From: Myxococcales bacterium
GTDB taxonomy: Bacteria > Myxococcota_A > UBA9160 > SZUA-336
Assembly: GCA_013215565.1 (NCBI GenBank)
Contig: JABSQV010000130.1
Span: forward strand, 8,880 to 72,879
Length of the DNA: 64,000 nucleotides
Reading direction: 5' to 3'
A model generated the notes under the pieces. The model was not told where the DNA came from. It saw nothing but the letters and a program-made list of their open reading frames with translations, and did no database searches. Each line of letters begins with the position of its first letter. Within the stretch, counting starts at the first letter, position 1. The position numbers were made by a program, and so were the translations under genes. Below, one piece after another: positions 27,213 to 59,232 of the stretch.

Positions 27213-28946
27213 TCAGAGCGCCGAGTACGAGCCACCCTGTTGCAAGAGGTCGTAGGCGATCCGGTCGTAGACATCGGCCAGGCGGAAGTGGTCGGCGGCG
27301 CTGCCTTCATGCCAGACGATCCGGCCCTTGTCCTCGTTGAGCACTCTGACCGGGGCGCGCATCTGATCGCTCCATCCGAGCACGGTGAACACGTCGGCGG
27401 GGAACGTGCGGCGCCTCTCCTGAATGTCGGCGAACGACACATCGAACACGGCCGTCCTGTCCACCCTGACTTCTTGGATCCGGTACTTGAGTTGCATCCC
27501 GTAAGGCAGCGCACCAACTCGCGGTGTCGGGAAGAACCGACAGAGCCAGACCTGGGCGCCCCCGTTGTTGATGAAGTAGTCCCTCAGCTCTTGCGCCTTG
27601 TGGGTCTCGGGCTGGGCGTCGATCACGCATGACTTGACGTGGTAGCGGATCAGCGCATCCTGCACCTCGTCGAAGGTGCGGCACGCCTGCACCAGCACAG
27701 CTCGGCGCACCGGGGGCAGGCTCGCGTCGGGCTTGCCGTTCTGGCCCTTGGCGGCCTCGATGACGCTGATGGACAGGTTCATCACCGAGCCCACATCGAT
27801 CCCCGCGGTCACGGTCAGCCGTCGATATTGGTCCCCGCCCGAGTAGTCGAGGTTGTCCCCGATGGCGGCGGCCTCCAGCATCGACTGGTCCAGCCTCGCC
27901 CCGGAGTACTCGAATGGGATCCCCAGCACCGAGCAGTAGAACGCGGCGAGCTTGGTCGGGTCGCCCTGCGCCTTGAGCCACTCCAGGTACAGGTCGGTGA
28001 GGCGCTGAGACAGGACATCGAGTCGCGACATCCAATAGCCGCGTGTCGAGCCCTCCCCCTCGGCGACCCAGAGTGCTCCAGCAGCGACCCGATCGAAGGG
28101 CTCGGTGCATCGCCGACACACGGGTCGGATGTCGGGGCCGCCCTCCCAGTTGCCCTGGACGTGGTTGTGGGCCTGGGCGCCCGCCCACCCCTTGTGGTCG
28201 CGAGGCAACCACTGCCCAGTGCCCTCGTCCCTTCGGACCACGTTGATGAACCAGTCCACGGGCTGGCGCTCGCCACAGTGTCCGCACTGCATGTACCAGC
28301 GACGGCGATCGCTCTCATCGTAGAGGCGCGAGATCCCGACGTTGGGCAGCGTCGGGTTCCCCAGTCGGATCATCTGGGGGTAGGGGCTCTCTCTGAGTCG
28401 GTCCTTGGCCTTGGCGAGGTTCTCTGGATCGCAGTGGTCGAACTCGTCCACGATCAGCAGGTCGGCCGAGAACTCCACGAAGTCGCCGGGGGTGTTCGAT
28501 CCGAGGAACAGCATCGAGCCCGCGCCGAACTTCTTGAGCTTCAGGCTCCCCGTCCTCGCCTTCTTGGCCTTTTCGTTGCCCATGGTCATGCCGCCGGGGC
28601 ACCGCTCACGGTATGCGGGCACGAATCGCAGGAGGGGATCCACCCGCTGCTTCACGAACCGATCTCGGATCGAGTAGGTCGGAAGCACATAGGCAACGAT
28701 GCGACCTTGCCACCCAGCCTTCTGAAGCGCGATCTGGACCGACAGTTCGGACATCCCTGTCTGCACGGCCTTGCGGATCACCCAGTCGTTGCAGTTGGCG
28801 GCATCGGCGTACAACTCGATGAGGTACGGCTTGTCGACGAACGACATTGGCGTGCCGCGAGTCGATTGATGATGCGACAGCGCGAGACCCAGGACGGGAT
28901 GCTCGGCAGAGAGCTTCGCCATCGTCGAGTGGTACTGGTCGAGCAT
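27213..28946 (-). CDS. terminase large subunit (lambda GpA-like)
   Basis: KAVQTGMS Walker-A variant resembling lambda gpA KSARVGYS; LLIVDEFDH Walker B; 577 aa; first gene of leftward late operon. Confidence 0.8.
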   Translation of the reverse strand: MLDQYHSTMAKLSAEHPVLGLALSHHQSTRGTPMSFVDKPYLIELYADAANCNDWVIRKAVQTGMSELSVQIALQKAGWQGRIVAYVLPTYSIRDRFVKQRVDPLLRFVPAYRERCPGGMTMGNEKAKKARTGSLKLKKFGAGSMLFLGSNTPGDFVEFSADLLIVDEFDHCDPENLAKAKDRLRESPYPQMIRLGNPTLPNVGISRLYDESDRRRWYMQCGHCGERQPVDWFINVVRRDEGTGQWLPRDHKGWAGAQAHNHVQGNWEGGPDIRPVCRRCTEPFDRVAAGALWVAEGEGSTRGYWMSRLDVLSQRLTDLYLEWLKAQGDPTKLAAFYCSVLGIPFEYSGARLDQSMLEAAAIGDNLDYSGGDQYRRLTVTAGIDVGSVMNLSISVIEAAKGQNGKPDASLPPVRRAVLVQACRTFDEVQDALIRYHVKSCVIDAQPETHKAQELRDYFINNGGAQVWLCRFFPTPRVGALPYGMQLKYRIQEVRVDRTAVFDVSFADIQERRRTFPADVFTVLGWSDQMRAPVRVLNEDKGRIVWHEGSAADHFRLADVYDRIAYDLLQQGGSYSAL

Positions 28947-36129: not shown

Positions 36130-36458
<329 letters not shown>

Positions 36459-42133: not shown

Positions 42134-42973
42134 CTATTCCCCTCCGGCCGCCTTCTTGGGCAGCTCGACTACCTCACCACCCTGATGGAGCCCGTCCTGA
42201 TCGACTTGCTCCCGCGTGACCAGCGCGCCGAGGATCGCGGACAGCTCCAGCGTGTCCTCGTACATCGCGGTCACGGTTGACGTATTCGCCTGCTTGGCCA
42301 TGCGCACCCTCACGGTCTCGACGATCCCGCCACCCATCGCAGTCTGAGCCGGGGGCAGCAGAATGTCCGCCAGCTCGTTGCGAGCGCGCAGGAACCCAGG
42401 CAGGTCGCGCATCGACAAGGTGGCCTCGCCTTTCGCGACCTTCTGGGCAAGCGTCCCGATCGCCGCATCCAGCAGGCCGAGGTGTCGGTGGGCGGTGACC
42501 TGATTGTCATCCCGCTCCAGCAGGTGCCTCTTGACGGTCTTGGCTGCTTGACCCTGCCGCCCAGGCTTGGGCGCGACCTCGTTCGGCAGGAAGGGCACCG
42601 ACATATTGGCTTCGACCGCAGCGACCTCACGCTGTCCCCAACGACCCAGGTACTTGGTGCGATATACGCGCATGGCGATTGCCTGCGCTGTCCCACCCAG
42701 CTCCTCAACGCGGCTGATCCAGTCGTTGCGCTTCTTCCACGATCTGATCGTCGAGTCGGATCGATGAACTGCGGCAGCAGCGACTCGGTAACTCCGCTTT
42801 CCCTCGTCCTGCATCGCCCAGAGCAGTAGGGCTCGGTGTTCGTGGGCACGCTCTCCGGGGTGCTTTTTCGACTTGATCCTGATGTCGAGAGAGCTGGGTT
42901 TTGAGGCCGACAATGCGGGCGCGGACTGTTGGTTTTTGCTCTTTGCTGCGCTCTTGGTCTTGGTCTTCGACAT
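42134..42973 (-). CDS. HTH DNA-binding protein (280 aa)
   Basis: Start MSKTKTKSAAKSK; helix-turn-helix RSYRVAAAAVHRSDSTIRSWKKRNDW. Confidence 0.5.
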   Translation of the reverse strand: MSKTKTKSAAKSKNQQSAPALSASKPSSLDIRIKSKKHPGERAHEHRALLLWAMQDEGKRSYRVAAAAVHRSDSTIRSWKKRNDWISRVEELGGTAQAIAMRVYRTKYLGRWGQREVAAVEANMSVPFLPNEVAPKPGRQGQAAKTVKRHLLERDDNQVTAHRHLGLLDAAIGTLAQKVAKGEATLSMRDLPGFLRARNELADILLPPAQTAMGGGIVETVRVRMAKQANTSTVTAMYEDTLELSAILGALVTREQVDQDGLHQGGEVVELPKKAAGGE

Positions 42974-43082
42974 CGGGTTGTCCCTGCTCGCTCCAATTCT
43001 ATCGCGATCTGGGCGAGCCTGCGCTGAGCCGCGCGATGGGTGCGCGGTTTCGCGCACCGGGTGCGAGATCATCGCGCACCCG

Positions 43083-43568
43083 TCATCGGATCTCATCCAC
43101 CGTCCAGTCCTTCGGCACCGTGCCCTCTGACCACAGCCACTCGACCGCAGCCTTGATCACGTCCGCGTGGCAGCTCTGCGGAGCACACCAGCACCCGAGA
43201 GAGATCCCATCGAGAGTGAGCGAGTACCGCATCACCTTGGACAGCTCAGCCTCAACCTCGGGAGCGTGTGTCGCCATCTCCTGCCAGAGCCATCGCTGGT
43301 AGCGTCCGATGCAGTCGTCCCGCCCGTTGCAGTCCTTGAGCTTGAATGGGTTGGCGAGCGGCGACCTCGGGTAGAGGAGTGCCTTGCGTCCACGCATCCC
43401 GCGACCGACGTAGTGCCAGTGAGGGGTGGGCCAGGTCGAGATCGGGTGCTTGACGTTGACCACGTGGATGATGGGCTTCGGATCGGCCCGTCGCTGCTCG
43501 ATCCGCTTCGCGCGGTCTTCTGCCATCTGCTGGAAGTTCACACTGCCTCCACGCCGTCGAGCTGGCAC
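43083..43568 (-). CDS. hypothetical protein (GCWCAPQSCH motif)
   Basis: 161-aa ORF with CWCxPxxCH motif. Confidence 0.45.
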   Translation of the reverse strand: MPARRRGGSVNFQQMAEDRAKRIEQRRADPKPIIHVVNVKHPISTWPTPHWHYVGRGMRGRKALLYPRSPLANPFKLKDCNGRDDCIGRYQRWLWQEMATHAPEVEAELSKVMRYSLTLDGISLGCWCAPQSCHADVIKAAVEWLWSEGTVPKDWTVDEIR

Positions 43569-43819
43569 CAGCGGACGAACGCGGTGCGGGTGATCAGGAT
43601 GTCGGACCCGTTCCGCAGATGGAGCTCCAGCTTGACGACCTCGAGGATCGGGATCGGGGTGAAGCGGACGATCCGATGCATCAGGAAGCCCGCCGAGGAC
43701 AGCACCCCACGCCGAGGCGCCTTCTCGGCCTTGCCCATGCGGTGCCAGATCCCAACGATGAGGTACACCCCGGTCGAGTTGCTGAACCGGTCGCCGATGT
43801 CGATCTGCTCAACCCTCAT
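43538..43819 (-). CDS. hypothetical protein
   Basis: Protein-like from MRVEQIDIGDRF. Confidence 0.4.
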   Translation of the reverse strand: MRVEQIDIGDRFSNSTGVYLIVGIWHRMGKAEKAPRRGVLSSAGFLMHRIVRFTPIPILEVVKLELHLRNGSDILITRTAFVRWCQLDGVEAV

Positions 43820-44036
43820 CGGCGTACTCAGGCAGGTGCTTGCAGCACTCGCAGATCCACTTCCCCGAGCGGTAGACCCACCCCTCCGCGATGGCCTGTT
43901 CGGCGACCTGCCTTTCCGTGTTGCCCTCGGACGCACACCCCGAATTGGCGTGGCAGTCCTCATCGCTGCAATCGACGAAGATCTCGATCAGCACCTCTCG
44001 GGTCAGGTGCTTCAGGGCGCCCCTCGGTACAGACAT
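43809..44036 (-). CDS. Cys-rich hypothetical protein
   Basis: DCSDEDCHANSGC...CECC. Confidence 0.4.
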   Translation of the reverse strand: MSVPRGALKHLTREVLIEIFVDCSDEDCHANSGCASEGNTERQVAEQAIAEGWVYRSGKWICECCKHLPEYADEG

Positions 44037-44341
44037 CACCAGTCTCCGATCTCGGACTTGGCCTCGGCCACCAACGCGGCCACCTGCTCCTCGAGCCACC
44101 CGGCCATGTGGGTGCGCAGCTCCTCGGGGATGATCCAGTCGGGGGTCTTGGTCTGCTTCAGCTTCAGCCCGATCTGGTTCTCGTCCCTGAGTCGAACGGC
44201 GACCTGGGCGAACTGGGCCGCGCGGGTGAGCAGCTCTCGCCGTCGCCGGGAGTCGTTGTCGCGCCGGTAGAGTTGATCGCTCACCAGATTGATCAGCTCC
44301 TCGACATCGGTGGGCGGCAGTGCGGGTTTGGCTTTGGGCAT
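44036..44341 (-). CDS. hypothetical protein
   Basis: ATG at 44341 (MPKAKPALPP) with GAGAGG SD; upstream part of ORF 44036..44542 is translation of the inverted repeat. Confidence 0.45.
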   Translation of the reverse strand: MPKAKPALPPTDVEELINLVSDQLYRRDNDSRRRRELLTRAAQFAQVAVRLRDENQIGLKLKQTKTPDWIIPEELRTHMAGWLEEQVAALVAEAKSEIGDW

Positions 44342-44384
44342 GTTGGTCCTCTCAGAATGGGATGCCCTGTTCGAGGGCGCTCCA

Positions 44385-44587
44385 ATGAGCCATCTGGTGA
44401 CACCGACAGACCGATACCAATAGGCAGAGGTGAGGTTGCGGGCCTTGGTCTTGGCTTCGCGCTCGATGCGCTCGGTGCGCTCCCGCTCCTCACGGAGTCT
44501 CCGCTGTCTCTCGGTCAGGGGTTTTCGGCGTCCCATGCTCACCTCTGCCTATTGGTATCGGTCTGTCGGTGTCACCAGATGGCTCAT
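44385..44587. repeat. perfect 50-bp inverted repeat, arms 44385-44434 and 44538-44587, 103-bp spacer
   Basis: ATGAGCCATCTGGTGACACCGACAGACCGATACCAATAGGCAGAGGTGAG and its exact reverse complement, seen directly. Confidence 0.85.
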
Positions 44588-44784
44588 GCCGCGTACTTCG
44601 CGAACCAGCACGGGGAGCAGACACAGATCACGATGGCCTCCCCAGACACCTTGGCGCGGTCTCTGACCTGCCGCTTGGGCATGAGACCGATCGGCCTGAA
44701 CCCTGCGAGCGAGCCCGCCTGGGTCGGGAACTCCAGCAGTCGGTGCTGGCACTCTCGACACCAGAGCAGCTCATTCGGCAGCAT
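44584..44784 (-). CDS. small zinc-ribbon protein
   Basis: MLPNELLWCRECQH...CVCSPC; stop codon lies inside right IR arm. Confidence 0.4.
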   Translation of the reverse strand: MLPNELLWCRECQHRLLEFPTQAGSLAGFRPIGLMPKRQVRDRAKVSGEAIVICVCSPCWFAKYAA

Positions 44785-45088
44785 CGGTCTCGGTCTCGGT
44801 CTCGGGGATCTCGACCCACCCGTGGTGTTGGGCGACGGCCTCGGCCAGGTCGACGGCGCGCTCGAACTGATCGGCACCTCGCTCGACCTGATCGACGAAC
44901 CGCTCGCCCTCCTTCTCCACCAGCGCGTAGCCCTGGGTGGCGATGGCGCCGGCGATCCCGTTGAGCACATCGGCGGCGTGCCTGATCTGGGTCAGAGCGT
45001 TGCCCGCTCGCATCAGACCCTCGCCGGCCTTGTCCATCGCGGTCAACCCTTTTTTGCTGGCGTCACCAGCTCTGCCTCTGAGACTCAT
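44771..45088 (-). CDS. hypothetical protein
   Basis: Protein-like from MSLRGRAGDASKKG. Confidence 0.4.
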   Translation of the reverse strand: MSLRGRAGDASKKGLTAMDKAGEGLMRAGNALTQIRHAADVLNGIAGAIATQGYALVEKEGERFVDQVERGADQFERAVDLAEAVAQHHGWVEIPETETETDAAE

Positions 45089-45486
45089 CGCTGCCCTCCC
45101 TGCTTGCGGGTCCACCACTGGTCGTGCATCCCAGCTGCCGAGAACATGTTCTCCCACTCGGACCAGATCCCACGTCGAACGCGATGGTGGGTCCGGTTGA
45201 CGCGGCGCTGCCACCAGCGAAGGACGGGGCTGGTCGCTCCCTCCTCGATGGCATCAAGCACCCAGAGTCGGCCACCCTCGCGCTCGACCATATGGGCGAT
45301 CTTGTTGATGATCTCCTCAGGCCAGAGTTGTTGCTCCATTCGACCGTCGCCAGCCTGGGCGATGGGCGAGCGGTCGAGAAAGGGGACGTGCCCGTTGTGG
45401 CGAGCGAGGATCGAGAGCGCGATCTGGCGACGATGCCAGAGCACACCCTGAGGGGCGACGATGAGGATTGGGCGGCGGGCGGGCAT
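45085..45486 (-). CDS. hypothetical protein
   Basis: 133-aa Trp-rich ORF. Confidence 0.45.
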   Translation of the reverse strand: MPARRPILIVAPQGVLWHRRQIALSILARHNGHVPFLDRSPIAQAGDGRMEQQLWPEEIINKIAHMVEREGGRLWVLDAIEEGATSPVLRWWQRRVNRTHHRVRRGIWSEWENMFSAAGMHDQWWTRKQGGQR

Positions 45487-47428: not shown

Positions 47429-48958
47429 CTACCTCCTCGGCACGACATTCGCCGCGCCTCGCTCTTTGTCATCGTGATTCTTGAGGTCGACGACCTCATC
47501 GCAGATCTCGCGCATCGCACCTGTGATCGAGCCCCTGGCGACCGTGAGCCCGAAGACCCGCATTCCGGTCTCCTCGCGGCGCCTGGCCAGCTCGGCCATC
47601 ACCGAGCTGCTCGCCGAGGCGTGCCCGTCGGTCACGAACACGATGTCGGAGCGGTCGTCGGCGGCCTGACCGTTCAGGGCGTACTTGAGGGGCGGGTTGA
47701 AATCGGTTCCGCCGCCAACGCGAGCGGTCACCAACTCCAGCGCGATGTCGGCGGGGCCACCGAGTGCGGTCTCGCCTCGGGTTCGACCCGTGTAGGTGTC
47801 GACATCGACGCGATAGGCGCGCCTCTTCTCGTCGAGGCGATGCACGCTGCAGACCCCACCGTTGAACCCGATGAAGGTCACGGCCCGCTTCTCCTTGATC
47901 GCGGTCTGCATGCAGGAGAGGGCGATGGCGCAAGCCAGCTGATGAGGTTGACCCGACATCGATCCCGAGCGGTCGAGCAGGACGGTCATCGGACCACGAC
48001 CCAGCACCTCGGTCCCGTCGAGCGCGTACTGGAGCAACGACCGCTCGACGACCTTCGCCAGAGTGAGGAGGCGCAGCTTGGGGTGCCGCAGTCCAACGAG
48101 CTGGGACGGGAGTACTCGGGACAGATCTGCGCCGCGCTCGATGCTGACGACCTCAGTGCGGGCGTCGGTCGTGCGGACCCGCTTCTTGGATGCTGCGATC
48201 CGCTGGATGCGTCCCGCCCTGCGGATCACGTCCCGGAGTCGCTTGTTCGACATCAGGTGCTCGGCGAGCTGCATGCGACCCGTGTCCTCCTTCTGGGAGT
48301 AGCCGGGAGGTGCAACTTCAAGACCGGGGGACAGACCGGAGAGTCCGGACTTGACCTCGACGATCTCCTCGTTCGCCTTCTCGGCGGCATCGCGCATCGC
48401 CGCCCGCATCATATCGACGGCTGTGGGCAGATCGCTCTCCTCACCGTTCTCGTCGAGGACGGGATCGTTGAGCTTGTCCCAGTCGCCATCGAAATCCTCG
48501 TTCTGGTCCTCGTCCTTCATGATGTCGGCGAGCTGCTCGCTGGCCGCCCTCATCATCGAAGCAGAGGCGATGGCCGCGAGATCGGGATCGCCGACAACGC
48601 GGGAGGCCAGCTCGGTGAACTCGGGGAGCTGCGAGAGCGCCTCATGCAGCGTCGGAACCCAGCGCGGGCACTTCGGCTCATCGAGCTTGGCGGGCTCGTT
48701 GTACAGTCGCGAGAAGACCTCGGTGCCGAGAGCGTCGGCCGTCGAGTGTGCGAACGACCGAACGCGGGCGACGGCGTTCTTGTTGTCCTCCTGCTCGACC
48801 AGGCCCTCCTCGATGACCTTGGAGGTCTGCAGGATCGCGTTGCCTACGGCCTTGCTGCGGTCACGTCGGATCTCAAACAGCAGGCGCTGCCACTCGCTGG
48901 TGTCGTAGGCGAGCTTGGCGTGGGTGCTGGTCTCGGCGGGCTTGCGTTTCGCGGACAT
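47429..48958 (-). CDS. von Willebrand factor A (VWA) domain protein
   Basis: ATG MSAKRKPAE abutting repeat; C-terminal VLLDRSGSMSG (DxSxS MIDAS) ... VFVTDGH. Confidence 0.6.
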   Translation of the reverse strand: MSAKRKPAETSTHAKLAYDTSEWQRLLFEIRRDRSKAVGNAILQTSKVIEEGLVEQEDNKNAVARVRSFAHSTADALGTEVFSRLYNEPAKLDEPKCPRWVPTLHEALSQLPEFTELASRVVGDPDLAAIASASMMRAASEQLADIMKDEDQNEDFDGDWDKLNDPVLDENGEESDLPTAVDMMRAAMRDAAEKANEEIVEVKSGLSGLSPGLEVAPPGYSQKEDTGRMQLAEHLMSNKRLRDVIRRAGRIQRIAASKKRVRTTDARTEVVSIERGADLSRVLPSQLVGLRHPKLRLLTLAKVVERSLLQYALDGTEVLGRGPMTVLLDRSGSMSGQPHQLACAIALSCMQTAIKEKRAVTFIGFNGGVCSVHRLDEKRRAYRVDVDTYTGRTRGETALGGPADIALELVTARVGGGTDFNPPLKYALNGQAADDRSDIVFVTDGHASASSSVMAELARRREETGMRVFGLTVARGSITGAMREICDEVVDLKNHDDKERGAANVVPRR

Positions 48959-49020
48959 CGGACTCTCTCTGTTGGTAGGTCCATGGTACACAATGACTGG
49001 GTACACCACAACCCCGACGC
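48959..49020 (-). repeat. start-associated repeat variant (GGTAGGTCCATGGTAC ... GGGTACACC)
   Basis: core abutting ATG of VWA gene. Confidence 0.7.
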
Positions 49021-49049
49021 AACGGATGATCGGCGTCGGGGCTCGACTT

Positions 49050-50195
49050 CTAGAAGCGGAGGCGGGACTTCAATTCGAGGGCGATCCGCTCGCGCATGGC
49101 GTCGATCTTCTGCGAGCACTCGAGGACACGGCTCGTCTGGTTGAGCAGCCCGATCTGGTCGCTGTATGCCTCAAGCATATCGGCCGCGCCGGTCGCGGCG
49201 AGCAGGAACGCCTGGCCCTTGGCGGCGAAGTCAACCTTTCGGTATTCGGCCGTCGCGAGATCGAGCGCCTTGCGCGCCTTGCTGATGTCGGGATCGATCA
49301 ACTTGGTGATCGCCGCGTCAACACTCGCGCGCTGGTCGGGCTCGTCCCAGAGGCAGTCGGAGAGGATGTCGAGATCTTCACGGGTGGCGACGGCGCGACC
49401 GTTGAGGAGCGCGTGACCCTTGATCAGTTTGATGGCCTTGCACCAGCGTCGATCGCTGACCACGATCTCATGGTCCATGGCGAGTTTCTCGCGCAGGTCG
49501 AGCACCGCGTCGATGACGGCATCGACGTTGACGGCTGCGGTCTGGGTGCGCAGGTCGTTGACTTGCTCGATGGTCAGCGAGGCCGTGATCTTCGGCTCAT
49601 CGGACGAGGACAGCAGACCGCGCAGCTTGTCGCGGTCGCTGATGTACCCGACCCACCGACGCAGGACGAACCGGTCGAACAGCGCGCCGAGGCTCTCGTC
49701 CTCGGGGAGCTCGTTCGACGCACCGACCATCATCTCCAACGGGATCGAGATCCGCTGGCCGCCGTTGTCGAACTGGCGCTCGTTGATGGCGGTCAACAGA
49801 CCGTTGAGGATCGCGCTGTTGGCTTTGAAGATCTCGTCGGCGAAGGCGACGGTCGCCTCGGGCAGATACCCAGCGGTGACGCGGCGGTACTGATCCTGCT
49901 CAAGTCCCTGCAGGCTGATCGGTCCGAAGACCTCCTCGGGGACGGTGAACTTGGTGAACAGCAACGACCAGGGCGTCCCGCCGAGGGCGGCCGTCAGGGC
50001 GTTGGTCAGCGCGGACTTCGCCGTGCCGGGAGGGCCGAGGAGCAGGACGTGCTCGCCCGCGAGCAAGGCGACCAGCAGGCAGGTCACCTCGCGGCTGCGC
50101 TCGATGAAGGCGCGGTCGAGGTCGACGCGCAGGTCTTGGAGCGCGGCGAGGGTGGTGGGGGCGGTCTGGGCGGTCAGGGCGGCTGGGGCGGTCAT
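49050..50195 (-). CDS. MoxR-family AAA+ ATPase
   Basis: HVLLLGPPGTAKS Walker A, ATVAFADEIFKANSAILNGLLTAINERQF Walker B/sensor typical of MoxR; ATG abutting variant B repeat. Confidence 0.7.
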   Translation of the reverse strand: MTAPAALTAQTAPTTLAALQDLRVDLDRAFIERSREVTCLLVALLAGEHVLLLGPPGTAKSALTNALTAALGGTPWSLLFTKFTVPEEVFGPISLQGLEQDQYRRVTAGYLPEATVAFADEIFKANSAILNGLLTAINERQFDNGGQRISIPLEMMVGASNELPEDESLGALFDRFVLRRWVGYISDRDKLRGLLSSSDEPKITASLTIEQVNDLRTQTAAVNVDAVIDAVLDLREKLAMDHEIVVSDRRWCKAIKLIKGHALLNGRAVATREDLDILSDCLWDEPDQRASVDAAITKLIDPDISKARKALDLATAEYRKVDFAAKGQAFLLAATGAADMLEAYSDQIGLLNQTSRVLECSQKIDAMRERIALELKSRLRF

Positions 50196-50280
50196 TTCGA
50201 TGTCCTCTCTGTTGGTGTGACTCCAAGGTAGAGGAGTCAAGCTCGAATGGATACCCATTAATCGGGTACTCCACCAAGAA
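50196..50280 (-). repeat. start-associated repeat, type B
   Basis: CTCTCTGTTGGTGTGACTCCAAGGTAG ... GGATACCC ... GGGTACTCC. Confidence 0.65.
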
Positions 50281-50360
50281 AGTTGGGCGGGTGGCTCACC
50301 TCGCCATCGCCCCCGGAGTGCTCTCCGGCGACGCGGCGATCTCGGTCTCGGGTCTCTGTA

Positions 50361-51575
50361 CTACGCGGCGGCTTCGGGCGCGGCCTCGACCGGGGCGGGG
50401 GCGGGCGCGTCCAGCTTGGTGAAGACGACGGTGGTCCCGCCCTTCTTTTTGGACAGGCGACCGCGCAGGTTCACCTCGGTCAGGGTCGCGCCGGCGTGGC
50501 GGGTCCAGAACGTGCGGTACTTGCCAGCCCACTCGGGAAACCCGGAGTCGGCGAGCTGCTCGACGGTCAGCTCCATGCCGTGCTTGTCGATGGCGGCTTT
50601 GATCTGGGTCTTCAGCTTCTCGCTTACACCCCGCGCCTTGCGCTTGCCATCGCCCTCGTCCTTCGCGAGTCCGAGGAGCGCGTTCGCCTGCTCGACGGCA
50701 TCGTCGATCTCGGTCTCCAGCTCGCCGAGTCCCAGGTGCAGGCTCTCGGAGTACAACTCGGCATAGGACTTGAGGGTGCGCAGCTCACCGAGCGCCTTCG
50801 CCAGGGAGTCGGCGCGCGGGCGTTGCTCTTTGGACTTCTTGGTCCAGTCGGCGAGGCGCTCGCGGATCCCGGCGAGGCTCTCGCTCGGGACCTTCTTGCC
50901 GTCGGCGACGTTGCCCATCAGGAAGTTCTTGGCCGCGCCGCCGATGCTGGTGCGGCTGGCCTCGGTGTCGGAAACGTGGGTGATGTGCAACGCGCTGTCC
51001 CCGATCTTGCTGACGATGCGGGCGAGCTTCTCGACATCGTCCTGGTGCTGCTTCGGGACGTAGTAGATCCCGCCCGAGTGCTGACGGACCGAGAATGCGC
51101 CGAACGCCTTGAGGGGCGCCTGGATGAGCACGGGGCGGATGAAGTCGTGGTCGAGGTACGTCCGGTCGCTGTCGGCCTGGGCGATGAAGCGGGTCGCCTC
51201 TTCGGTCTTGCCGACGGTCGTCCACTTGTCCATGGCCTTGTCGAACACGACGGTATCGACCTGCTCCCACCTGACCTCTTTGTCGTTGACGCGCTTGTGG
51301 GTCAGGATGCCGACCATCAGCGAGTCGGCGTCCTCGAACACGACCTCGGTGCGGTAGCGCGCCGCGTTGCCGCGTCCCTGCTTCCAGCTTCGGGCCGTGT
51401 CGCGGATCTCGGACACGCTGTTGAGATCGGGGACCACGCTCGGGTTCTCGCCTTCGGACTTCAGGATCTTTCGCAGTGCGGCGGGGGTCGTCTTGGTGTT
51501 GAAAAGATCCCACCAGACGAGGGCGCCGAGGCCGAGGGCCAGGTTGTCCATCATCTGCGTTTTGTCGGTCGTCAT
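50361..51575 (-). CDS. hypothetical protein (404 aa), first gene of leftward early operon
   Basis: ATG MTTDKTQMM abutting repeat; C-terminal Lys/Gly-rich tail. Confidence 0.5.
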   Translation of the reverse strand: MTTDKTQMMDNLALGLGALVWWDLFNTKTTPAALRKILKSEGENPSVVPDLNSVSEIRDTARSWKQGRGNAARYRTEVVFEDADSLMVGILTHKRVNDKEVRWEQVDTVVFDKAMDKWTTVGKTEEATRFIAQADSDRTYLDHDFIRPVLIQAPLKAFGAFSVRQHSGGIYYVPKQHQDDVEKLARIVSKIGDSALHITHVSDTEASRTSIGGAAKNFLMGNVADGKKVPSESLAGIRERLADWTKKSKEQRPRADSLAKALGELRTLKSYAELYSESLHLGLGELETEIDDAVEQANALLGLAKDEGDGKRKARGVSEKLKTQIKAAIDKHGMELTVEQLADSGFPEWAGKYRTFWTRHAGATLTEVNLRGRLSKKKGGTTVVFTKLDAPAPAPVEAAPEAAA

Positions 51576-51600
51576 CGTGTGCCTCTCTGTTGTTGTTTGG
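51576..51600 (-). repeat. start-associated repeat, truncated variant
   Basis: CCTCTCTGTTGTTGTTTGG abutting ATG 51575. Confidence 0.5.
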
Positions 51601-51825
51601 CATGAGGAAGGTCGCATCTGCTGCGTACACTTGCAACCAGGATCGGGAGGTTATTTCTAGGTTTCGTGGAAACCCCGTTGGACTGATGGCTTCTCACGAT
51701 CAGGACGCGAGGGTCGGTCGTATCCTCCTGCCGGAGGGCGAGTTTCGATGCCGCGCCTCTGAGGTTTCGGGTTGTGCTCGTACCCACTCCATGTGTACCT
51801 TGGCGTCACCAACAGAGAGGTCACC
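51576..51825. promoter_or_regulatory. divergent early control region with GGTTTCGTGGAAACC palindrome
   Basis: 250-bp spacer between leftward (51575) and rightward (51826) starts; perfect 6-3-6 palindrome at ~51661-51675; plus-orientation copy of start repeat at 51790-51825. Confidence 0.45.
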
Positions 51826-52231: not shown

Positions 52232-53572
52232 CGAGGCGAACGCCAACCGAGCGAAGCAGGGCATGCCGGCCTTGTCGAACCTCGGGCCCGGCCGTCTGAC
52301 CATCCGGCCCGCCCCGCGTGCCGTGGGGTCGGGTGCGCCTCCGACGAACCCCGCGGCTCGGACCTCGAGGAGGGCAACTGCATCGAGCTGGTCATGGAGC
52401 TCCATCGCCTCCCTCGACCGTCGCCAGTGTCGGGGGTGTGCTCGCGGTGTCGCCAACTCGGCGAGAACGTGGACCCCCAGGTGGCTCGTCCGCACCACAG
52501 CGACCCGACCCGACCACGCCGGCCGCTGGGCCGCCCACAGCTCGACGGCGCGCCCAGCGTCCGCCAGGGCGCGATTGTCGAAGGGCGCGTCGGTGAACCC
52601 GTCGAGGTCGACCGCGAGCCAGCGAGTCTCCACGGGCTCCCATCGAGCGGGCACCCAGCGCCCGTGAACCTCTCGCCAGCTCGACGGGGCCATCCCATCG
52701 AGCCCGACGAACAGATCGGGGAGATGTGCGAGCGGGATCCCGGAGCGGTCGGCCTGACGGCTGCTATCGATCAGCGTTCCCCACGCCCGGTCGGTGCCGA
52801 GACCCCGTTCGGCTGTTCGGAGGACCGTGAGCAGGCCGGTCGACCGTGAGGGAGAGTAGCGGACTCCTCTCGGTCCTCTTCGCCCGAGGAGCACGGAGAC
52901 ACGGCGAGCGGTGCGCTCCTGGATGTGTACTGTATCAATGCCCCGATCCAGATCTGGGCGAGGGGCTCGTCCGCGAGAGCGTCTGAGCTGTACCCGACCC
53001 CGATATCGCCGCCAGTACCCCGACGCCTCGCAACCGAAGCAGACGGCCGATCCCGTCTGCCCTCCCGCGTTGGGGTAGAGCGCCATCGACGGGTTCCGAT
53101 CATCGTGCCAGGGGCAGCATGTGATCGACTTGGGTCCACGCTCGATGGGCACGACCTCGATCCAGTCGTCGGTGTCGTCGTCGGTGTCGTCGTCGGTGTC
53201 CGACCACGATGAGCATGCCTCGATCGCGTTGGGGTCGACCAGGAGATGCTGACCCCAGGTCCGACCCGCTCGGTCGCGCAACTCGACTCCCATCTCCCTG
53301 GCCTCGTTGATGTGGACCGACGCCCACCCGAGGACATCGCGGACCAGATTCCAGGCGGTCCGCGCCGTCGCATAGGCGACCCCGCTCTCATGCCTGAGGT
53401 AGCTGATCGACAACTCGGTGTACCAAGACCCGGCGACGAGCTGCCGACGGTGGATCGCGATCCGCCTCAGCAGGCACCGCACCGCGTGCCCGCATCGCTC
53501 ACCGACCTCGGCGAGCAAGGTGTCGAGCTGCTGGCACAGATGTGCAACGGTGGGCGAGGGCGTGGGCGTCAA
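52230..53572 (-). CDS. primase-polymerase (PrimPol-like) protein with CHC2-type zinc finger; 3' end uncertain
   Basis: CCPWHDDRNPSMALYPNAGGQTGSAVCFGCEASGYW zinc-binding motif; RWLAVDLDG and SHLGVHV motifs of archaeo-eukaryotic primase fold; antisense orientation inside rightward module; central R-rich stretch suggests indel. Confidence 0.45.
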
Positions 53573-53845: not shown

Positions 53846-55294
53846 ATGACATCGTTGGTTAGGAGGCACCACCGCTATGACGGTGACGTGCCTGGCGTGC
53901 CCATGCTCGCCATGATGATCTCAAATTCGGAGAGAGGCCGCGCCGCGTGCCCACTCCGCTGGTGGTTCGGCTACGGCGAGGGGCTCGTCACCTCGCTCGA
54001 TGAGCCGCCCCTCAGGTACGGGGGAGCGTGGCATCAGCTCCTCGAGGATATGCACCGCTGGTGGATGATCCGCGATGAGCCCTACCCCTCGAACGGTCAT
54101 CGGGTGTGCTGCTGGTGCGTTGGGAACGGGCAGACTGTTTCGGTGACGTGCCATGAGTGCAAGGGCTGGGCGACCGGCCCCGCCGACCGGGCACTGCAAG
54201 CCTGGATCAAGTTGGAGGGTGACGAGAAGATCGAACCCGGCCAGGCCGCGCTCGATCACCAGCGCCTCTGCCGCGCGTGGGAGGGCTACACGCACACCTA
54301 CGGCTTCGGGCCGCTGCAGAAGTTGAAGCCGATCGGGGTGGAGCTCCGATTCGGCGTGCCGATCCTGAACCCGTCGACCTCGACCGTCTACCGGCCGAGC
54401 CTGTGGATGATCCGCGAGGGTCAGACGATGCGGGTCGCCCGTACATCCGAGGCGAACGGTCCCAACGCGGTTCAGGTCCGATGGCCCTGGTACTACGCCG
54501 TGACCCTCGACCTGCTGTTGGTCGATCGCGAGGATCCCAGAGAGCTGTGGCTCTGGGAGGGCAAGACGGCGAAGTCGCCGACGCGGAGGATGCACAACCT
54601 CTCGCTGGATCCCCAGGTGCAGGGCTACTCCTGGGCGATCAATCACGCGGTCAAGGCGGGGCTGATCGAGGGCGTGCCGAGAGATGCACGACTGGCTGGG
54701 TACGTGTTCGATGTCGTGTCCAACAGCATGCAGCACGATCCGAAGCAGCTCGCTCCCAAGAAGGTCAAGGTGCCGCACCCCGAGACCGGGGAGCCCTACA
54801 AGGAGAAGGGTCGGTGGGTCTACGAGATCGGCGGCGACGGTCAGCCCATCGAGCGGTCGCCGGGGTTGTCGATGTCGAAGCAGTCGGCACCGCCGTCGTG
54901 GCGGTTCGCCAACGAGTTGGACCGACTGGGGCTCGACCGCGGCCCCTATGAGGATCACATGCTCGACCTGATGGAGAGGGTCGACACGAAACTCTACCAA
55001 CGCAACTGGAGCACCTGTGGACCCGAGGTGGTCGACCGATTCGGGCATGAGGTCTACGGGGTCGCCCGCCGCCTCGCCGAGATGCGACGGTCGGCGGCGA
55101 CGGCGACGACGCCCTACGAGATCGCCCAGCGATTCCCGCGCGTGCCCATCTGCACCCAGCCGGGTGGCGGGTGCTCGTTCACCGGACCGTGCCTGCAAGA
55201 TGGCGATCTGGTCCGCAACAACTTCAAGGTCCGTGATCCGACGCGATGGGTGCCCGCATCCAGCATCGGTCAGGACGACCTGATCCCGACCTAA
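53846..55294 (+). CDS. Cas4/RecB-family PD-(D/E)XK exonuclease with Fe-S Cys cluster
   Basis: WYYAVTLDLLLVDREDPRELWLWEGKTAKS (D..D/ExK) and C-terminal CTQPGGGCSFTGPC plus N-terminal CPLRWWF. Confidence 0.55.
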   Translation: MTSLVRRHHRYDGDVPGVPMLAMMISNSERGRAACPLRWWFGYGEGLVTSLDEPPLRYGGAWHQLLEDMHRWWMIRDEPYPSNGHRVCCWCVGNGQTVSVTCHECKGWATGPADRALQAWIKLEGDEKIEPGQAALDHQRLCRAWEGYTHTYGFGPLQKLKPIGVELRFGVPILNPSTSTVYRPSLWMIREGQTMRVARTSEANGPNAVQVRWPWYYAVTLDLLLVDREDPRELWLWEGKTAKSPTRRMHNLSLDPQVQGYSWAINHAVKAGLIEGVPRDARLAGYVFDVVSNSMQHDPKQLAPKKVKVPHPETGEPYKEKGRWVYEIGGDGQPIERSPGLSMSKQSAPPSWRFANELDRLGLDRGPYEDHMLDLMERVDTKLYQRNWSTCGPEVVDRFGHEVYGVARRLAEMRRSAATATTPYEIAQRFPRVPICTQPGGGCSFTGPCLQDGDLVRNNFKVRDPTRWVPASSIGQDDLIPT

Positions 55295-55311
55295 CAAAGG
55301 AGAAGAGAACC

Positions 55312-56115
55312 ATGATCCTCAATTTCGAACGAGCGGGGGACATTGACACGTCCAACCTGCATTACAAGATCCTGCTGTACGGTAAGTCCGGCGCGGGGAA
55401 GACCTACGCGGCGGCCACGGCTCCGAACTGTTGCTTCCTCCTCACCGAGCGAAACGGTCAGCAGTCGATCCGCATCAGCAACCCCGACGCGGTGATCGCC
55501 TACTGCCCGACGGCCGAGAAGGTCCGCGCGTTCATGCGGATGGCCGTCAAGGGCGAGCTGCCCGACGGGATCCGCACCATCGTGCTCGATGGGCTGACCG
55601 AGCTGCAGAAGATCTTCCAAGACGAGATCCTCGCCGGCAAGGACGCTCAGAACCGGCACATGACCAAGCAGGATTGGGGCACCCTCACCGAGAAGATGCG
55701 CCTGTTCATGCGGACCCTCCGCGACCTGGAGTACCACGTCGTGGCCACCGCGCTCTCGGACGAGTCCCAGGCCGACGGCGACGGCGCGATCCGCTACGTC
55801 CAGCCCTCGTTCTCCGGTCGCAAGCTGCCGCAGGAGATCGCCCAATTCTTCAACGGGTGCGGGTACGTCTTCAAGAAGGCGAAGGCGGACGAGAACGGCA
55901 AGGAAGAGATCTTCCACCGGATCATGTTCGACGGCCCGTCCCGCTTCACGGTGAAGCCGTGCTATCCCCTGGGCGGCATTCAGGAGCCCGATCTGTCGAC
56001 GTGGTTCGACCAGCTCGCGTCCGCTGGGGCGCCCGACAAGGCCGGCAAGGCCGACAAGACCAAAACCAAGACCAAGGCCGGCAAGGCCGAAGATTCCAAA
56101 GGAGTTGCAGCATGA
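55312..56115 (+). CDS. Sak4-like RecA-fold ATPase (AAA_24)
   Basis: ILLYGKSGAGKT Walker A; IVLDGLTEL Walker B; typical phage annealase partner. Confidence 0.65.
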   Translation: MILNFERAGDIDTSNLHYKILLYGKSGAGKTYAAATAPNCCFLLTERNGQQSIRISNPDAVIAYCPTAEKVRAFMRMAVKGELPDGIRTIVLDGLTELQKIFQDEILAGKDAQNRHMTKQDWGTLTEKMRLFMRTLRDLEYHVVATALSDESQADGDGAIRYVQPSFSGRKLPQEIAQFFNGCGYVFKKAKADENGKEEIFHRIMFDGPSRFTVKPCYPLGGIQEPDLSTWFDQLASAGAPDKAGKADKTKTKTKAGKAEDSKGVAA

Positions 56116-58842: not shown

Positions 58843-59232
58843 ATGCCGAAGCCCACACCCATCGAAGTCCAGTTCATCTGGGAGACCTGGCGGCAGACCC
58901 GCCCTCGTCCGAACCTCTGCAGGTTCACCAAGGATCGGGACAAGCTGATCAAGGCTCGCCTCGAGCTGGGGTACTCGGCGACCGATCTGGTCGCACTGGT
59001 CCGCTACATGACCGAGAGCAATGACAGCCTCCCCCGCTGGATGCGAGGGGACAACCCGCGCAAGAAGTCCTACATGGACCTCGACAACCTCTTCCGCGTC
59101 GGCCAGCTCGGCAAGCGCGTCGAGGCGGCCCTCATCTGGATCGAGGAGTTGGAGAAGCAGTCGACGCCCGACGCCTCGAACCCCTGCGGTACCGAGCTGG
59201 GTCCGATGGGTCGCTTCGGGCGCGGTTCATGA
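58843..59232 (+). CDS. hypothetical protein
   Basis: ATG with GGAGGA SD. Confidence 0.45.
   Translation: MPKPTPIEVQFIWETWRQTRPRPNLCRFTKDRDKLIKARLELGYSATDLVALVRYMTESNDSLPRWMRGDNPRKKSYMDLDNLFRVGQLGKRVEAALIWIEELEKQSTPDASNPCGTELGPMGRFGRGS

What the first reader, a model, noticed from the sequence alone, without database searches (positions are those of the whole stretch)
44385..44587. Perfect 50-bp inverted repeat flanking a 103-bp spacer in the early region
Arms ATGAGCCATCTGGTGACACCGACAGACCGATACCAATAGGCAGAGGTGAG are exact reverse complements. That degree of identity in a 64-kb window implies recent formation or selection. The right arm covers the stop of gene 44584..44784 and the left arm lies just upstream of the ATG of 44036..44341. 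The structure could form a ~50-bp stem-loop or cruciform in RNA or DNA. Candidate functions: replication origin, packaging or recombination site, strong terminator/attenuator, or a MITE-like miniature element footprint.
Basis: seen in the sequence. Interest (0 to 1): 0.65.

Follow-up and report, generated by a model that had tools for sequence, protein, structure and literature searches.

The report
Perfect hairpin repeat around gene start
An uncultured deep-sea phage carries a real, perfect 50-bp inverted repeat that brackets the start codon and first 34 codons of a small gene; it most likely arose as an inverted copy of the neighbouring ribosome-binding region, and there is only equivocal evidence that the bracketed piece flips.

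Summary
Arms 44385-44434 and 44538-44587 are 50/50 complementary, 103 bp apart, and have no other copy in the window. Independent assemblies from 15 or more samples contain the repeat, so it is not an assembly artefact.

The 103-bp "spacer" is not non-coding. On the minus strand it starts with ATG and its 34 codons use this phage's codon pattern. The arms are AT-richer and look non-coding. The upstream arm holds gene A's stop codon and the next ORF's Shine-Dalgarno sequence. The downstream arm is its inverted copy, sitting after codon 34. Without that copy the ORF would encode 44 aa and end in gene B's ribosome-binding site.

I found no promoter, intrinsic terminator, Rfam family, GC-skew turn, target-site duplication, second copy or Ser/Tyr recombinase. 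The local proteins have no homologues.

Three contigs from other samples show the spacer flipped, but only at contig ends. My MEGAHIT-like simulation produces the same flipped junctions from an unflipped genome at low coverage, in 1-14% of junction-bearing contigs.

Best reading: an inverted-duplication scar. It gives a very stable mRNA hairpin that buries a ribosome-binding site, and it is a recombination substrate. A true inverton remains possible at about 0.2-0.35. Interest is modest.

The parts
44538..44587 (-). Upstream arm as read on the coding (minus) strand: ATGAGCC...GGCAGAGGTGAG. It contains the last base of gene A's final sense codon, gene A's stop (TGA, 44584-44586, in an ATGA overlap), a 12-codon mini-ORF (MSHLVTPTDRYQ*) and, at its inner end, the Shine-Dalgarno GAGGTGAG of the next ORF. 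Probably the original copy.
   Evidence: GC is 54% against 64.6% for the window. No reading frame scores as coding. SD-like GAGG/GGAGG motifs lie 5-9 nt before most neighbouring starts.
44435..44537 (-). The 103-bp segment between the arms. Its base 2-4 on the minus strand is ATG (44536-44534), followed by 33 more codons (MGRRKPLTERQRRLREERERTERIEREAKTKARN). It is genuine sense-strand coding sequence in the window's orientation. If flipped, TTG replaces the ATG and the frame stays open but reads antisense-type codons.
   Evidence: The codon-usage log-likelihood of sense over flipped reading is 18.0; true gene windows give 15.1 +/- 6.2 and 99.8% are above 0. The coding score is 0.39 per codon, like genes A and B. 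AF2 models it as a helix with pLDDT 80-86.
44385..44434 (-). Downstream arm, the exact reverse complement of the upstream arm. It is read in frame as LTSAYWYRSVGVTRWL within the 166-aa ORF. Probably the inserted inverted copy.
   Evidence: Composition is non-coding-like (score -0.18, GC 54%). Strain L011 has a SNP here (window 44398) that is absent from the other arm.
44342..44384 (-). A 43-nt tail between the downstream arm and gene B's ATG, containing gene B's own Shine-Dalgarno (GAGAGGA). Read directly after codon 34 of the spacer, as if the downstream arm were absent, it gives WSALEQGIPF followed by TGA inside that Shine-Dalgarno. That would be a normal end for a 44-aa gene.
   Evidence: Sequence and frame translations and scores.
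44584..44784 (-). Gene A, 66 aa, a CxxC...CxCxxC small protein with no homologues. Its stop codon lies in the upstream arm.
   Evidence: (NCBI NRA04350.1, HRU00_17315).
44036..44536 (-). The 166-aa ORF as called by Prodigal in unflipped contigs: spacer codons, then arm-encoded linker, then gene B. Its 3' part (44036-44341) is the 101-aa gene B with its own RBS, which is how NCBI annotates it.
   Evidence: No homologue in 5.8 billion or 1.84 billion protein libraries apart from itself. AF2 gives pLDDT about 40 across residues 51-75, the junction region.
53846..56115 (+). The phage's own homologous-recombination genes: a PD-(D/E)XK nuclease (53846-55294) and a Sak4-like AAA_24 annealase (55312-56115). 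These are the enzymes that could flip the segment, since no invertase is present.
   Evidence: phrog_124, 5e-30.

Best explanation
The 50 bp carrying gene A's stop codon and the next gene's ribosome-binding site (upstream arm, 44538-44587, minus strand) has been copied in inverted orientation. The copy sits 103 bp downstream, right after codon 34 of a small gene that once encoded about 44 aa. This made a 203-bp cassette that appears in every assembly of this phage examined here.

Shown: the repeat is real and unique. The arms look non-coding and the upstream one carries a stop codon and a Shine-Dalgarno sequence. The segment between the arms is true coding sequence in the orientation seen in the window. 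The insertion fuses the 34 codons, through 31 linker codons, in frame to the 101-aa gene B.

Inferred: which arm is the original. Also inferred are the consequences.
(a) In the polycistronic minus-strand mRNA the arms pair into a perfect 50-bp helix. The helix buries the ribosome-binding site of the long frame and is an ideal substrate for double-strand-specific RNase III. Gene B would then be made mainly as the 101-aa protein from its own ribosome-binding site just past the helix. The long form would be made only when ribosomes coming from gene A and the arm's mini-ORF open the helix.
(b) In DNA the identical arms are a substrate for homologous recombination or template switching, by the phage's Sak4-like annealase and PD-(D/E)XK nuclease or by host RecA. 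A minority of genomes may therefore carry the 103 bp flipped.

I read it as a tolerated structural scar with effects on its own transcript and DNA. I do not read it as a dedicated origin, terminator, mobile element or enzyme-driven switch.
For: The repeat is exact, sharp-edged and unique.

It is present in 15 or more independent assemblies, with the k-1 break pattern in Logan contigs.

The arms have GC 54%, in the lowest 5.5% of 50-mers, and no frame scores as coding. The spacer, gene A and gene B score as coding.

The upstream arm has the normal anatomy of an intergenic junction in this phage: a stop codon, then GAGG-type SD 5 nt before ATG.

With the downstream arm removed, the spacer frame runs 10 more codons to a TGA inside gene B's SD.

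Every contig that crosses the whole cassette has the window's orientation, including a 78-kb one.

One strain has a SNP in one arm only, so the arms are not being kept identical.

The RNA fold gives -166.7 kcal/mol, z = -11.7.

No Ser/Tyr recombinase was found in the window or in precomputed Pfam hits for the rest of the genome. There is no sigma-70-like promoter or terminator, no Rfam family and no skew turn.
Against: No relative of this phage exists in any library searched. The ancestral arm-less state is therefore inferred from reading frames alone, over 10-16 codons, which is statistically weak.

There is no microhomology at the junctions to suggest how the duplication arose.

Three contigs from three samples (L004, L009, L018) carry the flipped spacer next to gene B. 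That is 3 of about 15 junction observations in small contigs. My simulated artefact rates for an unflipped genome are lower: 10-14% at 2x, 3-4% at 3x and 0-1.4% at 4x or more. Real flipping, and possibly a selected switch, is therefore not excluded.

That the cassette appears in every sample could reflect selection rather than a clonal population.

The RNA effects are predictions. No transcript data were available.
Confidence: 0.45

Rival explanations
1. The cassette is an invertible DNA segment, an inverton inside or at the 5' end of a gene. Recombination between the arms flips the 103 bp. In the window's orientation the arm's ribosome-binding site meets an ATG and 34 good codons, giving the 166-aa protein. 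In the flipped orientation it meets TTG and antisense-type codons, so only the 101-aa protein is made. Flipping would be driven by the phage's Sak4-like/PD-(D/E)XK system or host RecA rather than by an invertase, and it produces population heterogeneity.
For: Three contigs from three different samples have the spacer flipped relative to gene B (L004, L009, L018). This is somewhat more than my simulated artefact rates predict. Many contigs end inside the cassette. The cassette is symmetric: both orientations put a start codon at spacer base 2 and keep the frame open. The phage encodes its own recombination proteins.
Against: All flipped contigs stop in or at the upstream arm, and none shows the matching flipped left junction (0 of 10). 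Every contig crossing the whole cassette is unflipped. The flipped contigs are low-coverage pieces from assemblies whose small contigs often have unrelated ends. A multi-k assembler makes the same flipped junction from an unflipped genome. There is no invertase or integrase, no promoter in the segment, and the flipped reading makes no plausible protein. One strain has diverged arms. A 103-bp loop is short for synapsis of double-stranded arms.
Confidence: 0.25
2. The repeat is a selected RNA element. The 50-bp helix in the operon mRNA is an RNase III processing site and translational gate that separates gene A's message from the downstream genes. It also makes translation of the long frame depend on ribosomes arriving from gene A. 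The DNA does not flip.
For: The arms lie on the transcribed strand between two co-directional genes. The helix is predicted to dominate the fold. It sequesters the Shine-Dalgarno and start of the 166-aa frame. Gene A's stop overlaps an ATG (ATGA) that opens a 12-codon mini-ORF running through the arm to 13 nt before the ATG. Gene B keeps its own ribosome-binding site just outside the helix. RNase III cutting of long perfect duplexes and its use by phages T7 and lambda are established knowledge (my own, not tested here).
Against: Natural RNase III and regulatory hairpins are shorter and imperfect. A perfect 50-bp match is what a recent duplication gives, not what RNA selection requires. There are no homologues, so covariation cannot be tested. 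There is no transcript evidence. The mini-ORF and the ATGA overlap could be chance.
Confidence: 0.2
3. The 203 bp is a miniature inverted-repeat transposable element (MITE) or an IS remnant inserted between gene A and gene B.
For: It has long terminal inverted repeats with sharp outer boundaries, arms that are AT-richer than the genome, and a total length typical of MITEs.
Against: There is no target-site duplication (flanks ...GCGGC | TGGAG...). There is no second copy in the ~78-kb genome. There were no exact hits with 50-, 39- or 23-nt arm probes in IMG/VR, JGI metagenomes or 185,579 species genomes. The interior has the phage's own codon usage and a start codon served by an arm-borne SD. 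There is no transposase in the genome.
Confidence: 0.04
4. The repeat is a DNA-level functional site: a replication origin, a packaging (pac/cos) site or a cruciform target for a structure-specific nuclease.
For: A 50-bp perfect repeat can extrude a cruciform. A weak terminase-small-subunit-like HTH protein lies 1.3 kb downstream. There is a shallow local dip in cumulative GC skew between 44 and 45.5 kb.
Against: The skew dip is broad, is not centred on the repeat and is not the global extremum. There are no iterons or AT-rich tract. The replication genes and the divergent transcription point are at 52-62 kb and the large terminase at 27-29 kb. The site lies inside a translated operon. Contigs do not end systematically at a fixed position in it. 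There is no protelomerase or Rep protein.
Confidence: 0.05
5. The repeat itself is an assembly artefact, a collapsed hairpin or chimeric read.
For: Low-coverage contigs from these samples do contain misjoined ends.
Against: Identical arms and spacer are recovered in independent per-sample assemblies from 15 or more samples, including contigs of 78 kb and 12.5 kb. They are also recovered in an NCBI MAG contig and implied by the k-1 break pattern in Logan contigs of two runs.
Confidence: 0.01

Closest known systems
Invertible DNA segments / invertons (Hin, Gin, Cin systems; PhaseFinder-type invertons; intragenic invertons of Chanin et al., PMC10028968; gene-altering programmed inversions, PMC9881135; putative viral invertons, PMC13501310)
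   Same: Inverted repeats bracket a short segment whose orientation would decide what is translated downstream. Flipped and unflipped junctions are both found among environmental contigs.
   Different: No Ser/Tyr recombinase lies nearby or anywhere in the genome. The arms are far longer (50 bp, perfect) than typical recombinase sites. The segment is very short (103 bp) and has no promoter. The flipped state encodes nothing sensible. The flipped evidence is confined to contig ends and can be reproduced as an assembler artefact.
RNase III processing hairpins in phage polycistronic mRNAs (T7 early and late sites, lambda sib and N-leader; from my own knowledge)
   Same: An intercistronic stem-loop on the transcribed strand of a co-directional phage operon, with the downstream gene keeping its own ribosome-binding site.
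   Different: Known sites have stems of about 20-30 bp with internal loops and small apical loops. This one is a perfect 50-bp stem with a 103-nt loop that contains a start codon and 34 codons. No cleavage or conservation data exist.
Recombination between closely spaced inverted repeats without a dedicated enzyme (RecA-independent strand-switch rearrangements on plasmids, Bi and Liu 1996; flip-flop of chloroplast inverted repeats; from my own knowledge)
   Same: Identical inverted repeats, no invertase, and a recombination-proficient replicon (Sak4-like annealase with PD-(D/E)XK nuclease). The expected outcome is a minority of flipped isomers.
   Different: Those cases were shown experimentally and usually involve longer repeats or spacers. 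Here the flipped isomer is not proven.
Miniature inverted-repeat transposable elements, including mycobacteriophage MPME elements
   Same: A short element bounded by inverted repeats inside a phage gene array.
   Different: There is no target-site duplication, a single copy, native codon usage in the interior, and arms five times longer than MPME's 11-bp repeats (from my own knowledge).

Membership tests
Site-specific invertible segment (inverton) | Inverted repeats flanking the segment | tested here: met
   50/50-nt arms, 103 bp apart.
Site-specific invertible segment (inverton) | A cognate serine or tyrosine recombinase encoded nearby or in the same genome | tested here: not met
   No catalytic motifs in six-frame translations. 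No Resolvase, Phage_integrase or Recombinase hits among about 84 ORFs scanned with Pfam and PHROGs. None in precomputed Pfam hits for the rest of the ~78-kb genome.
Site-specific invertible segment (inverton) | Both orientations coexist in the population, with both junctions of each | tested here: inconclusive
   Flipped right junction in 3 contigs (L004, L009, L018), flipped left junction in 0 of 10, and all crossing contigs unflipped. Simulation shows 1-14% artefactual flipped junctions from an unflipped genome.
Site-specific invertible segment (inverton) | The segment carries a promoter or alternative coding sequence, so that each orientation has a defined output | tested here: not met
   No sigma-70-like promoter. 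Only one orientation has sense-type codon usage and an ATG.
MITE / IS-derived element | Target-site duplication flanking the terminal repeats | tested here: not met
   The flanks GCGGC and TGGAG share no direct repeat.
MITE / IS-derived element | Multiple copies in the same or related genomes | tested here: not met
   Single copy in the genome. Zero hits in three public collections with 50-, 39- and 23-nt probes.
Intrinsic (Rho-independent) terminator | GC-rich short stem-loop followed by a U-tract | tested here: not met
   The stem is followed by UGGAGCGCCC. No terminator-like site lies in 43800-45200.
RNase III processing site | A double-stranded RNA stem of about 20 bp or more in a transcript | tested here: met
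   A predicted 50-bp perfect stem on the coding strand. That the region is transcribed is inferred from the co-directional genes.
RNase III processing site | Cleavage in vivo, or conservation of pairing among relatives | not testable with these tools
   No transcript data, and no homologous loci in any collection.
Replication origin | Skew inflection, iterons or AT-rich unwinding element, and an adjacent initiator gene | tested here: not met
Protelomerase target (telRL-type palindrome) | A contiguous palindrome without a spacer, plus a protelomerase gene | tested here: not met
   A 103-bp non-palindromic spacer. No protelomerase-like hit.
Rfam MIR1437 (the only Rfam hit) | Score at or above the family's gathering threshold | tested here: not met
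   57.5 bits against a threshold of 168. This is a generic long-hairpin match to a plant miRNA model.

The most novel reading that the evidence does not exclude
A lytic phage with no invertase uses a perfect 50-bp inverted duplication of a ribosome-binding site as a recombinase-independent flip-flop. Its own Sak4-type recombination machinery flips a 103-bp cassette carrying the start codon and first 34 codons of an early gene. A minority of genomes in each burst therefore make only the short (101-aa) form of the protein. This would be an intragenic inverton in a virus, driven by homologous recombination.
Probability: 0.2. Interest if true: 0.6.

Novelty: new member of a known kind. Interest (0 to 1): 0.33.

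Why it matters
If the segment really flips, this would be a clean, minimal case of phase-variable protein coding in a virus without a dedicated recombinase. It would be relevant to current searches for viral invertons in metagenomes.

If it does not flip, the value is mainly cautionary. A 50-bp inverted repeat is enough to make short-read assemblers emit "flipped" contigs at low coverage. Orientation differences between metagenomic contigs therefore cannot be taken as evidence for inversion without read-level support.

Either way the cassette shows how a single inverted duplication can fuse two small phage genes and place a very stable hairpin over a ribosome-binding site.

Tried and rejected
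Searches for relatives, all empty or uninformative:
- Nucleotide searches of the region against 50,697 phage records, near and distant modes: no match.
- tblastn of the 166-aa ORF: no match.
- TerL is only 25% identical to any cultured phage.
- Arm probes in IMG/VR, JGI metagenomes and GTDB genomes: 0 hits.
- Protein-guided locus searches with gene B, the VWA protein and DUF4326: no relatives, or only distant DUF4326 hits (38% identity or less).
- Homologue searches for the 166-aa ORF and for a hypothetical arm-less gene A + spacer + tail fusion: only self hits.
- A concatenated query of seven neighbouring proteins failed, swamped by 8000 word candidates.

Hypotheses rejected:
- Origin of replication.
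- Terminator or promoter.
- Known RNA family.
- tRNA-linked integration site.
- MITE.
- Protelomerase site.
- Retron-like element; no reverse transcriptase appeared among the reported Pfam/PHROG hits.

Other readings set aside:
- I considered taking the three flipped contigs as proof of inversion. I set this aside after the simulations and after finding unrelated sequence at the ends of several small contigs.
- I considered that both arms were inserted into a once-continuous gene A + spacer ORF, because the frames fit. This needs an ATG and a matching SD to arise by chance, so it is less parsimonious than a single inverted duplication.
- Fold-back priming as the origin is not supported by any microhomology at the junctions.

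Full report
**1. Observation**

Reading 43900-45000 and running the repeat finder confirm the arms at 44385-44434 and 44538-44587. They are 50 nt long, 100% complementary and 103 nt apart. With up to 3 mismatches the 50-mer occurs only at these two places, and 100 dinucleotide shuffles gave none. It is by far the longest and best inverted repeat in the window; the next is 36 nt at 81%. No piece of an arm longer than 12 nt recurs in the window or in the two loci covering the rest of the genome. Complementarity stops abruptly at all four arm boundaries.

**2. Context**

- The window is 64.6% G+C and belongs to a tailed phage. It has a large terminase (27213-28946), a portal (17775-20417), a tape measure (572-4759) and a primase-helicase with a LAGLIDADG insert (59229-62309).
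- Genes from about 52 kb down to 27 kb are on the minus strand, so the minus strand is the coding strand at the repeat.
- The phage has no close relative. There is no nucleotide match in 50,697 phage records, and TerL is 25% identical to the nearest cultured phage.
- Exact-product look-ups place the locus on a 78,129-bp contig and on many smaller ones named BOEU19-1_SAMN...; on Logan contigs of two SRA runs; and in an NCBI MAG labelled Myxococcales bacterium (HRU00_17310/17315).
- From the names I infer that these are SPIRE-style per-sample assemblies of the Station ALOHA 4000-m sediment-trap metagenomes of Boeuf et al. 2019. That study used TruSeq Nano libraries, 150-bp paired reads and a NextSeq (PMC6575173). 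SPIRE assembles with MEGAHIT defaults (PMC10767986). This link is inferred, not verified.

**3. The repeat is real**

- Identical arms and spacer are present in independent assemblies from at least 15 samples, including contigs of 78 kb, 12.5 kb and 7 kb.
- Logan contigs (k = 31) stop exactly 30 nt into the arm on either side. That is what a true inverted repeat longer than k produces.
- One strain (L011) has a single substitution in one arm only (window 44398), giving 49/50. The arms are therefore not being continuously homogenised.

**4. Anatomy on the coding strand**

The order on the coding strand is gene A, upstream arm, spacer, downstream arm, 43-nt tail, gene B.

- Gene A (44784-44584, 66 aa, Cys-rich) ends with a TGA that is bases 2-4 of the upstream arm. 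The arm starts ATGA, which also opens a 12-codon mini-ORF (MSHLVTPTDRYQ*).
- The arm ends with GGCAGAGGTGAG. GAGG/GGAGG motifs 5-9 nt before the start codon are the norm for neighbouring genes.
- The spacer begins C-ATG. A start codon therefore sits 5 nt after that Shine-Dalgarno, and the remaining 102 nt are exactly 34 codons (MGRRKPLTERQRRLREERERTERIEREAKTKARN).
- The frame continues through the downstream arm (LTSAYWYRSVGVTRWL) and the 43-nt tail into gene B (MPKAKP..., 101 aa, own SD GAGAGGA). Prodigal therefore calls a 166-aa ORF (44536-44036) in these contigs, whereas NCBI annotates the 101-aa form.

**5. Coding tests**

I trained a codon table on 19 confident genes of this phage.
- The spacer read in the window's orientation beats the flipped reading by 18.0 log-likelihood units. 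True gene windows of the same length give 15.1 +/- 6.2, and 99.8% are above 0.
- Per-codon scores are 0.39 for the spacer, 0.27 for gene A and 0.26 for gene B. No frame of either arm scores above -0.18, and the 5th percentile of true coding windows is -0.07.
- The arms have 54% G+C, in the lowest 5.5% of 50-mers; the spacer has 67%.
- So the "spacer" is a piece of gene, in its native orientation, and the arms look like intergenic DNA.
- Read straight after codon 34, as if the downstream arm were absent, the tail gives WSALEQGIPF and then a TGA inside gene B's Shine-Dalgarno. That is the usual way small genes abut in this operon.
- The most economical history is therefore a single inverted duplication of the 50-bp gene A-stop/RBS junction, inserted after codon 34 of a 44-aa gene. 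This inference rests on frames over 10-16 codons and cannot be checked against relatives.
- An AF2 model without an alignment (mean pLDDT 64.7) shows a confident helix for the spacer-encoded residues (pLDDT 80-86). It shows a disordered stretch (about 40) across the end of the arm-encoded residues, the tail and gene B's first residues (residues 51-75). This is compatible with the history above but is weak evidence.

**6. What it is not**

- Not a promoter or intrinsic terminator: no sigma-70-like promoter and no terminator-like site in 43800-45200, and the stem is followed by UGGAGCGCCC.
- Not a known RNA family: only a sub-threshold hit to a plant miRNA hairpin model, 57.5 bits against 168.
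- Not tRNA-linked: no tRNA in the window.
- Not an origin: no skew inflection at the repeat. The cumulative skew has a broad shallow local dip with its minimum near 45.35 kb, and the global extremes lie elsewhere. There are no iterons.
- Not a mobile element: no target-site duplication, and no other copy anywhere.
- No recombinase: no serine or tyrosine recombinase, transposase, protelomerase or reverse transcriptase was detected.
- No homologues: gene A, the spacer ORF and gene B have none in 5.8 billion or 1.84 billion proteins.

**7. Does the segment flip?**

Evidence for flipping:
- Three contigs from three samples carry the spacer in the opposite orientation next to the downstream arm and gene B. 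They are L004 (SAMN09710604, 5.9 kb), L009 (SAMN09765715, 520 bp) and L018 (SAMN09765698, 2.2 kb).
- Many small contigs end inside the cassette.

Evidence against reading these as real:
- All three flipped contigs stop in or at the upstream arm.
- None of 10 contigs covering the left junction is flipped.
- Every contig that crosses the whole cassette is unflipped: L001, L002, L003, L011, L013, plus three further contigs carrying the 166-aa product.
- Reads internal to the cassette say nothing about orientation. A de Bruijn graph with k < 50 merges the two arms.

Simulation. I wrote a simplified MEGAHIT-like assembler: k = 21...141, minimum count 2 with mercy k-mers, tip clipping, and contigs carried forward between k values. 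I ran it on reads simulated from an unflipped genome. The figures below are flipped junctions against unflipped junctions, in contigs of at least 400 bp (first run) or 500 bp (second and third runs).

| Run (call) | 2x | 3x | 4x | 5x | 7x |
|---|---|---|---|---|---|
| Error-free reads (72) | 2 vs 17 | 3 vs 65 | 0 vs 81 | – | – |
| 0.3% errors (73) | 3 vs 18 | 4 vs 90 | – | 0 vs 95 | – |
| 0.3% errors, paired ~350-bp fragments, fragments with both arms 90% depleted (78) | – | 1 vs 34 | – | 1 vs 85 | 1 vs 71 |

- In addition, several small contigs in these assemblies begin with sequence unrelated to the phage: L003 nt 1-191, L017 nt 1-31, L019 nt 1-24 and L018 nt 1-11. Misjoined ends are therefore common.
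- The observed 3 flipped of about 15 junction observations in small contigs is at or somewhat above the simulated artefact rate. L004 in particular is not from the lowest coverage class.
- I therefore put the chance that flipped molecules really exist at a few percent or more at roughly 0.35-0.4. I do not count the contigs as proof.
- If flipping occurs, the likely agents are the phage's PD-(D/E)XK nuclease (53846-55294) and Sak4-like annealase (55312-56115) or host RecA, not an invertase.

**8. How it most likely works**

Shown: the structure, its authenticity, the coding status of the parts and the absence of the listed rival features.

Inferred:
- (a) Origin as an inverted duplication of the RBS junction.
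- (b) In the operon mRNA the arms form a perfect 50-bp helix (311-nt fold -166.7 kcal/mol, z = -11.7). The helix hides the Shine-Dalgarno and start of the long frame and should be cut by RNase III (established enzyme specificity, from my own knowledge). Gene B would then be expressed mainly from its own ribosome-binding site. The long frame would be translated only co-transcriptionally, or when ribosomes terminating gene A re-initiate on the arm's mini-ORF and melt the helix.
- (c) In DNA the arms are a substrate for occasional flipping.

I give this [quoted passage not shown] reading 0.45. I give a recombination-driven invertible cassette with biological meaning 0.25, and a selected RNA processing or translation element 0.2. 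A MITE gets 0.04, an ori/pac/cruciform site 0.05, and an artefactual repeat 0.01. These readings partly overlap, so the figures are separate estimates rather than a partition.

**9. Comparison with known systems, and novelty**

- It resembles invertons in layout but fails two defining tests (no recombinase, no defined output in the second orientation), and a third is inconclusive.
- It resembles phage RNase III sites in position but not in size or perfection.
- It resembles enzyme-independent inverted-repeat recombination substrates in principle.
- It is not a MITE.

I rate it a new member of a known kind: a long inverted duplication or hairpin in a phage genome. The unusual feature is that it brackets a translation start.

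Interest is modest (0.33). The most novel reading not excluded is a recombinase-independent intragenic inverton in a virus (probability about 0.2, interest if true about 0.6). The decisive test is read-level orientation counting in the source SRA runs, which these tools could not do.

Noticed in passing
window 59229-62309 (+): The 1026-aa primase-helicase ORF (Toprim_2 ... DnaB_C) has LAGLIDADG_3/Hom_end hits at residues about 647-717, between the two enzyme parts. This looks like an intein with a homing endonuclease.
   Followed up: no
window 47429-51617 (-): A module of VWA protein (47429-49009), MoxR-like AAA ATPase (bpMoxR, 49050-50258) and DUF6744 protein (50361-51617) lies 3-7 kb upstream of the repeat in the same gene array. 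This is an unusual cargo for a phage.
   Followed up: no
window 53846-56115 (+): A PD-(D/E)XK nuclease next to a Sak4-like AAA_24 single-strand annealing protein, meaning the phage has its own homologous-recombination pair.
   Followed up: partly
window 22934-23677 (+), and other ORFs of alignment A1 whose coordinates were not resolved: An N6/N4 DNA methylase domain at 22934-23677. Elsewhere among the scanned ORFs there are Mom-like DNA-modification, ParB-like, MazG-like pyrophosphohydrolase and HslV-like peptidase hits.
   Followed up: no
L020 (5726-13305) and L021 (9164-18513), beyond the two ends of the window: The sequence past the window's end runs into the same tail-gene series (574-aa, about 165-aa and 62-aa products, among others) that follows the tape-measure gene past the window's start. 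The ~78-kb contig therefore looks like a complete, circularly permuted genome. It was binned into a Myxococcales MAG at NCBI.
   Followed up: partly
L003 nt 1-191; L017 nt 1-31; L019 nt 1-24; L018 nt 1-11: Several small per-sample contigs start with sequence that does not match the phage at all. These are chimeric ends or junk at contig tips, a warning about structural inferences from these low-coverage assemblies. L003's 191 nt could alternatively be a mosaic junction in a variant strain.
   Followed up: partly
window 44398 (strain in L011, contig of 12,517 bp): A single-base difference in the downstream arm only. It changes T to P in the 166-aa frame (protein P0003) and makes the repeat 49/50 in that strain.
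   Followed up: yes
window 36355-36407 and 53165-53200: Perfect short tandem repeats inside the gene array: GGCTCG x 8.8 and a 12-mer (GTCGTCGGTGTC) x 3.
   Followed up: no
window 43083-43568 (-) and 42134-43096 (-): A DUF4326 protein and a 279-320-aa protein with a transposase/resolvase-type HTH (HTH_23/HTH_28, below threshold; weak small-terminase PHROG hit) lie 0.8-2.3 kb downstream of the repeat. The HTH protein has no catalytic recombinase domain.
   Followed up: partly
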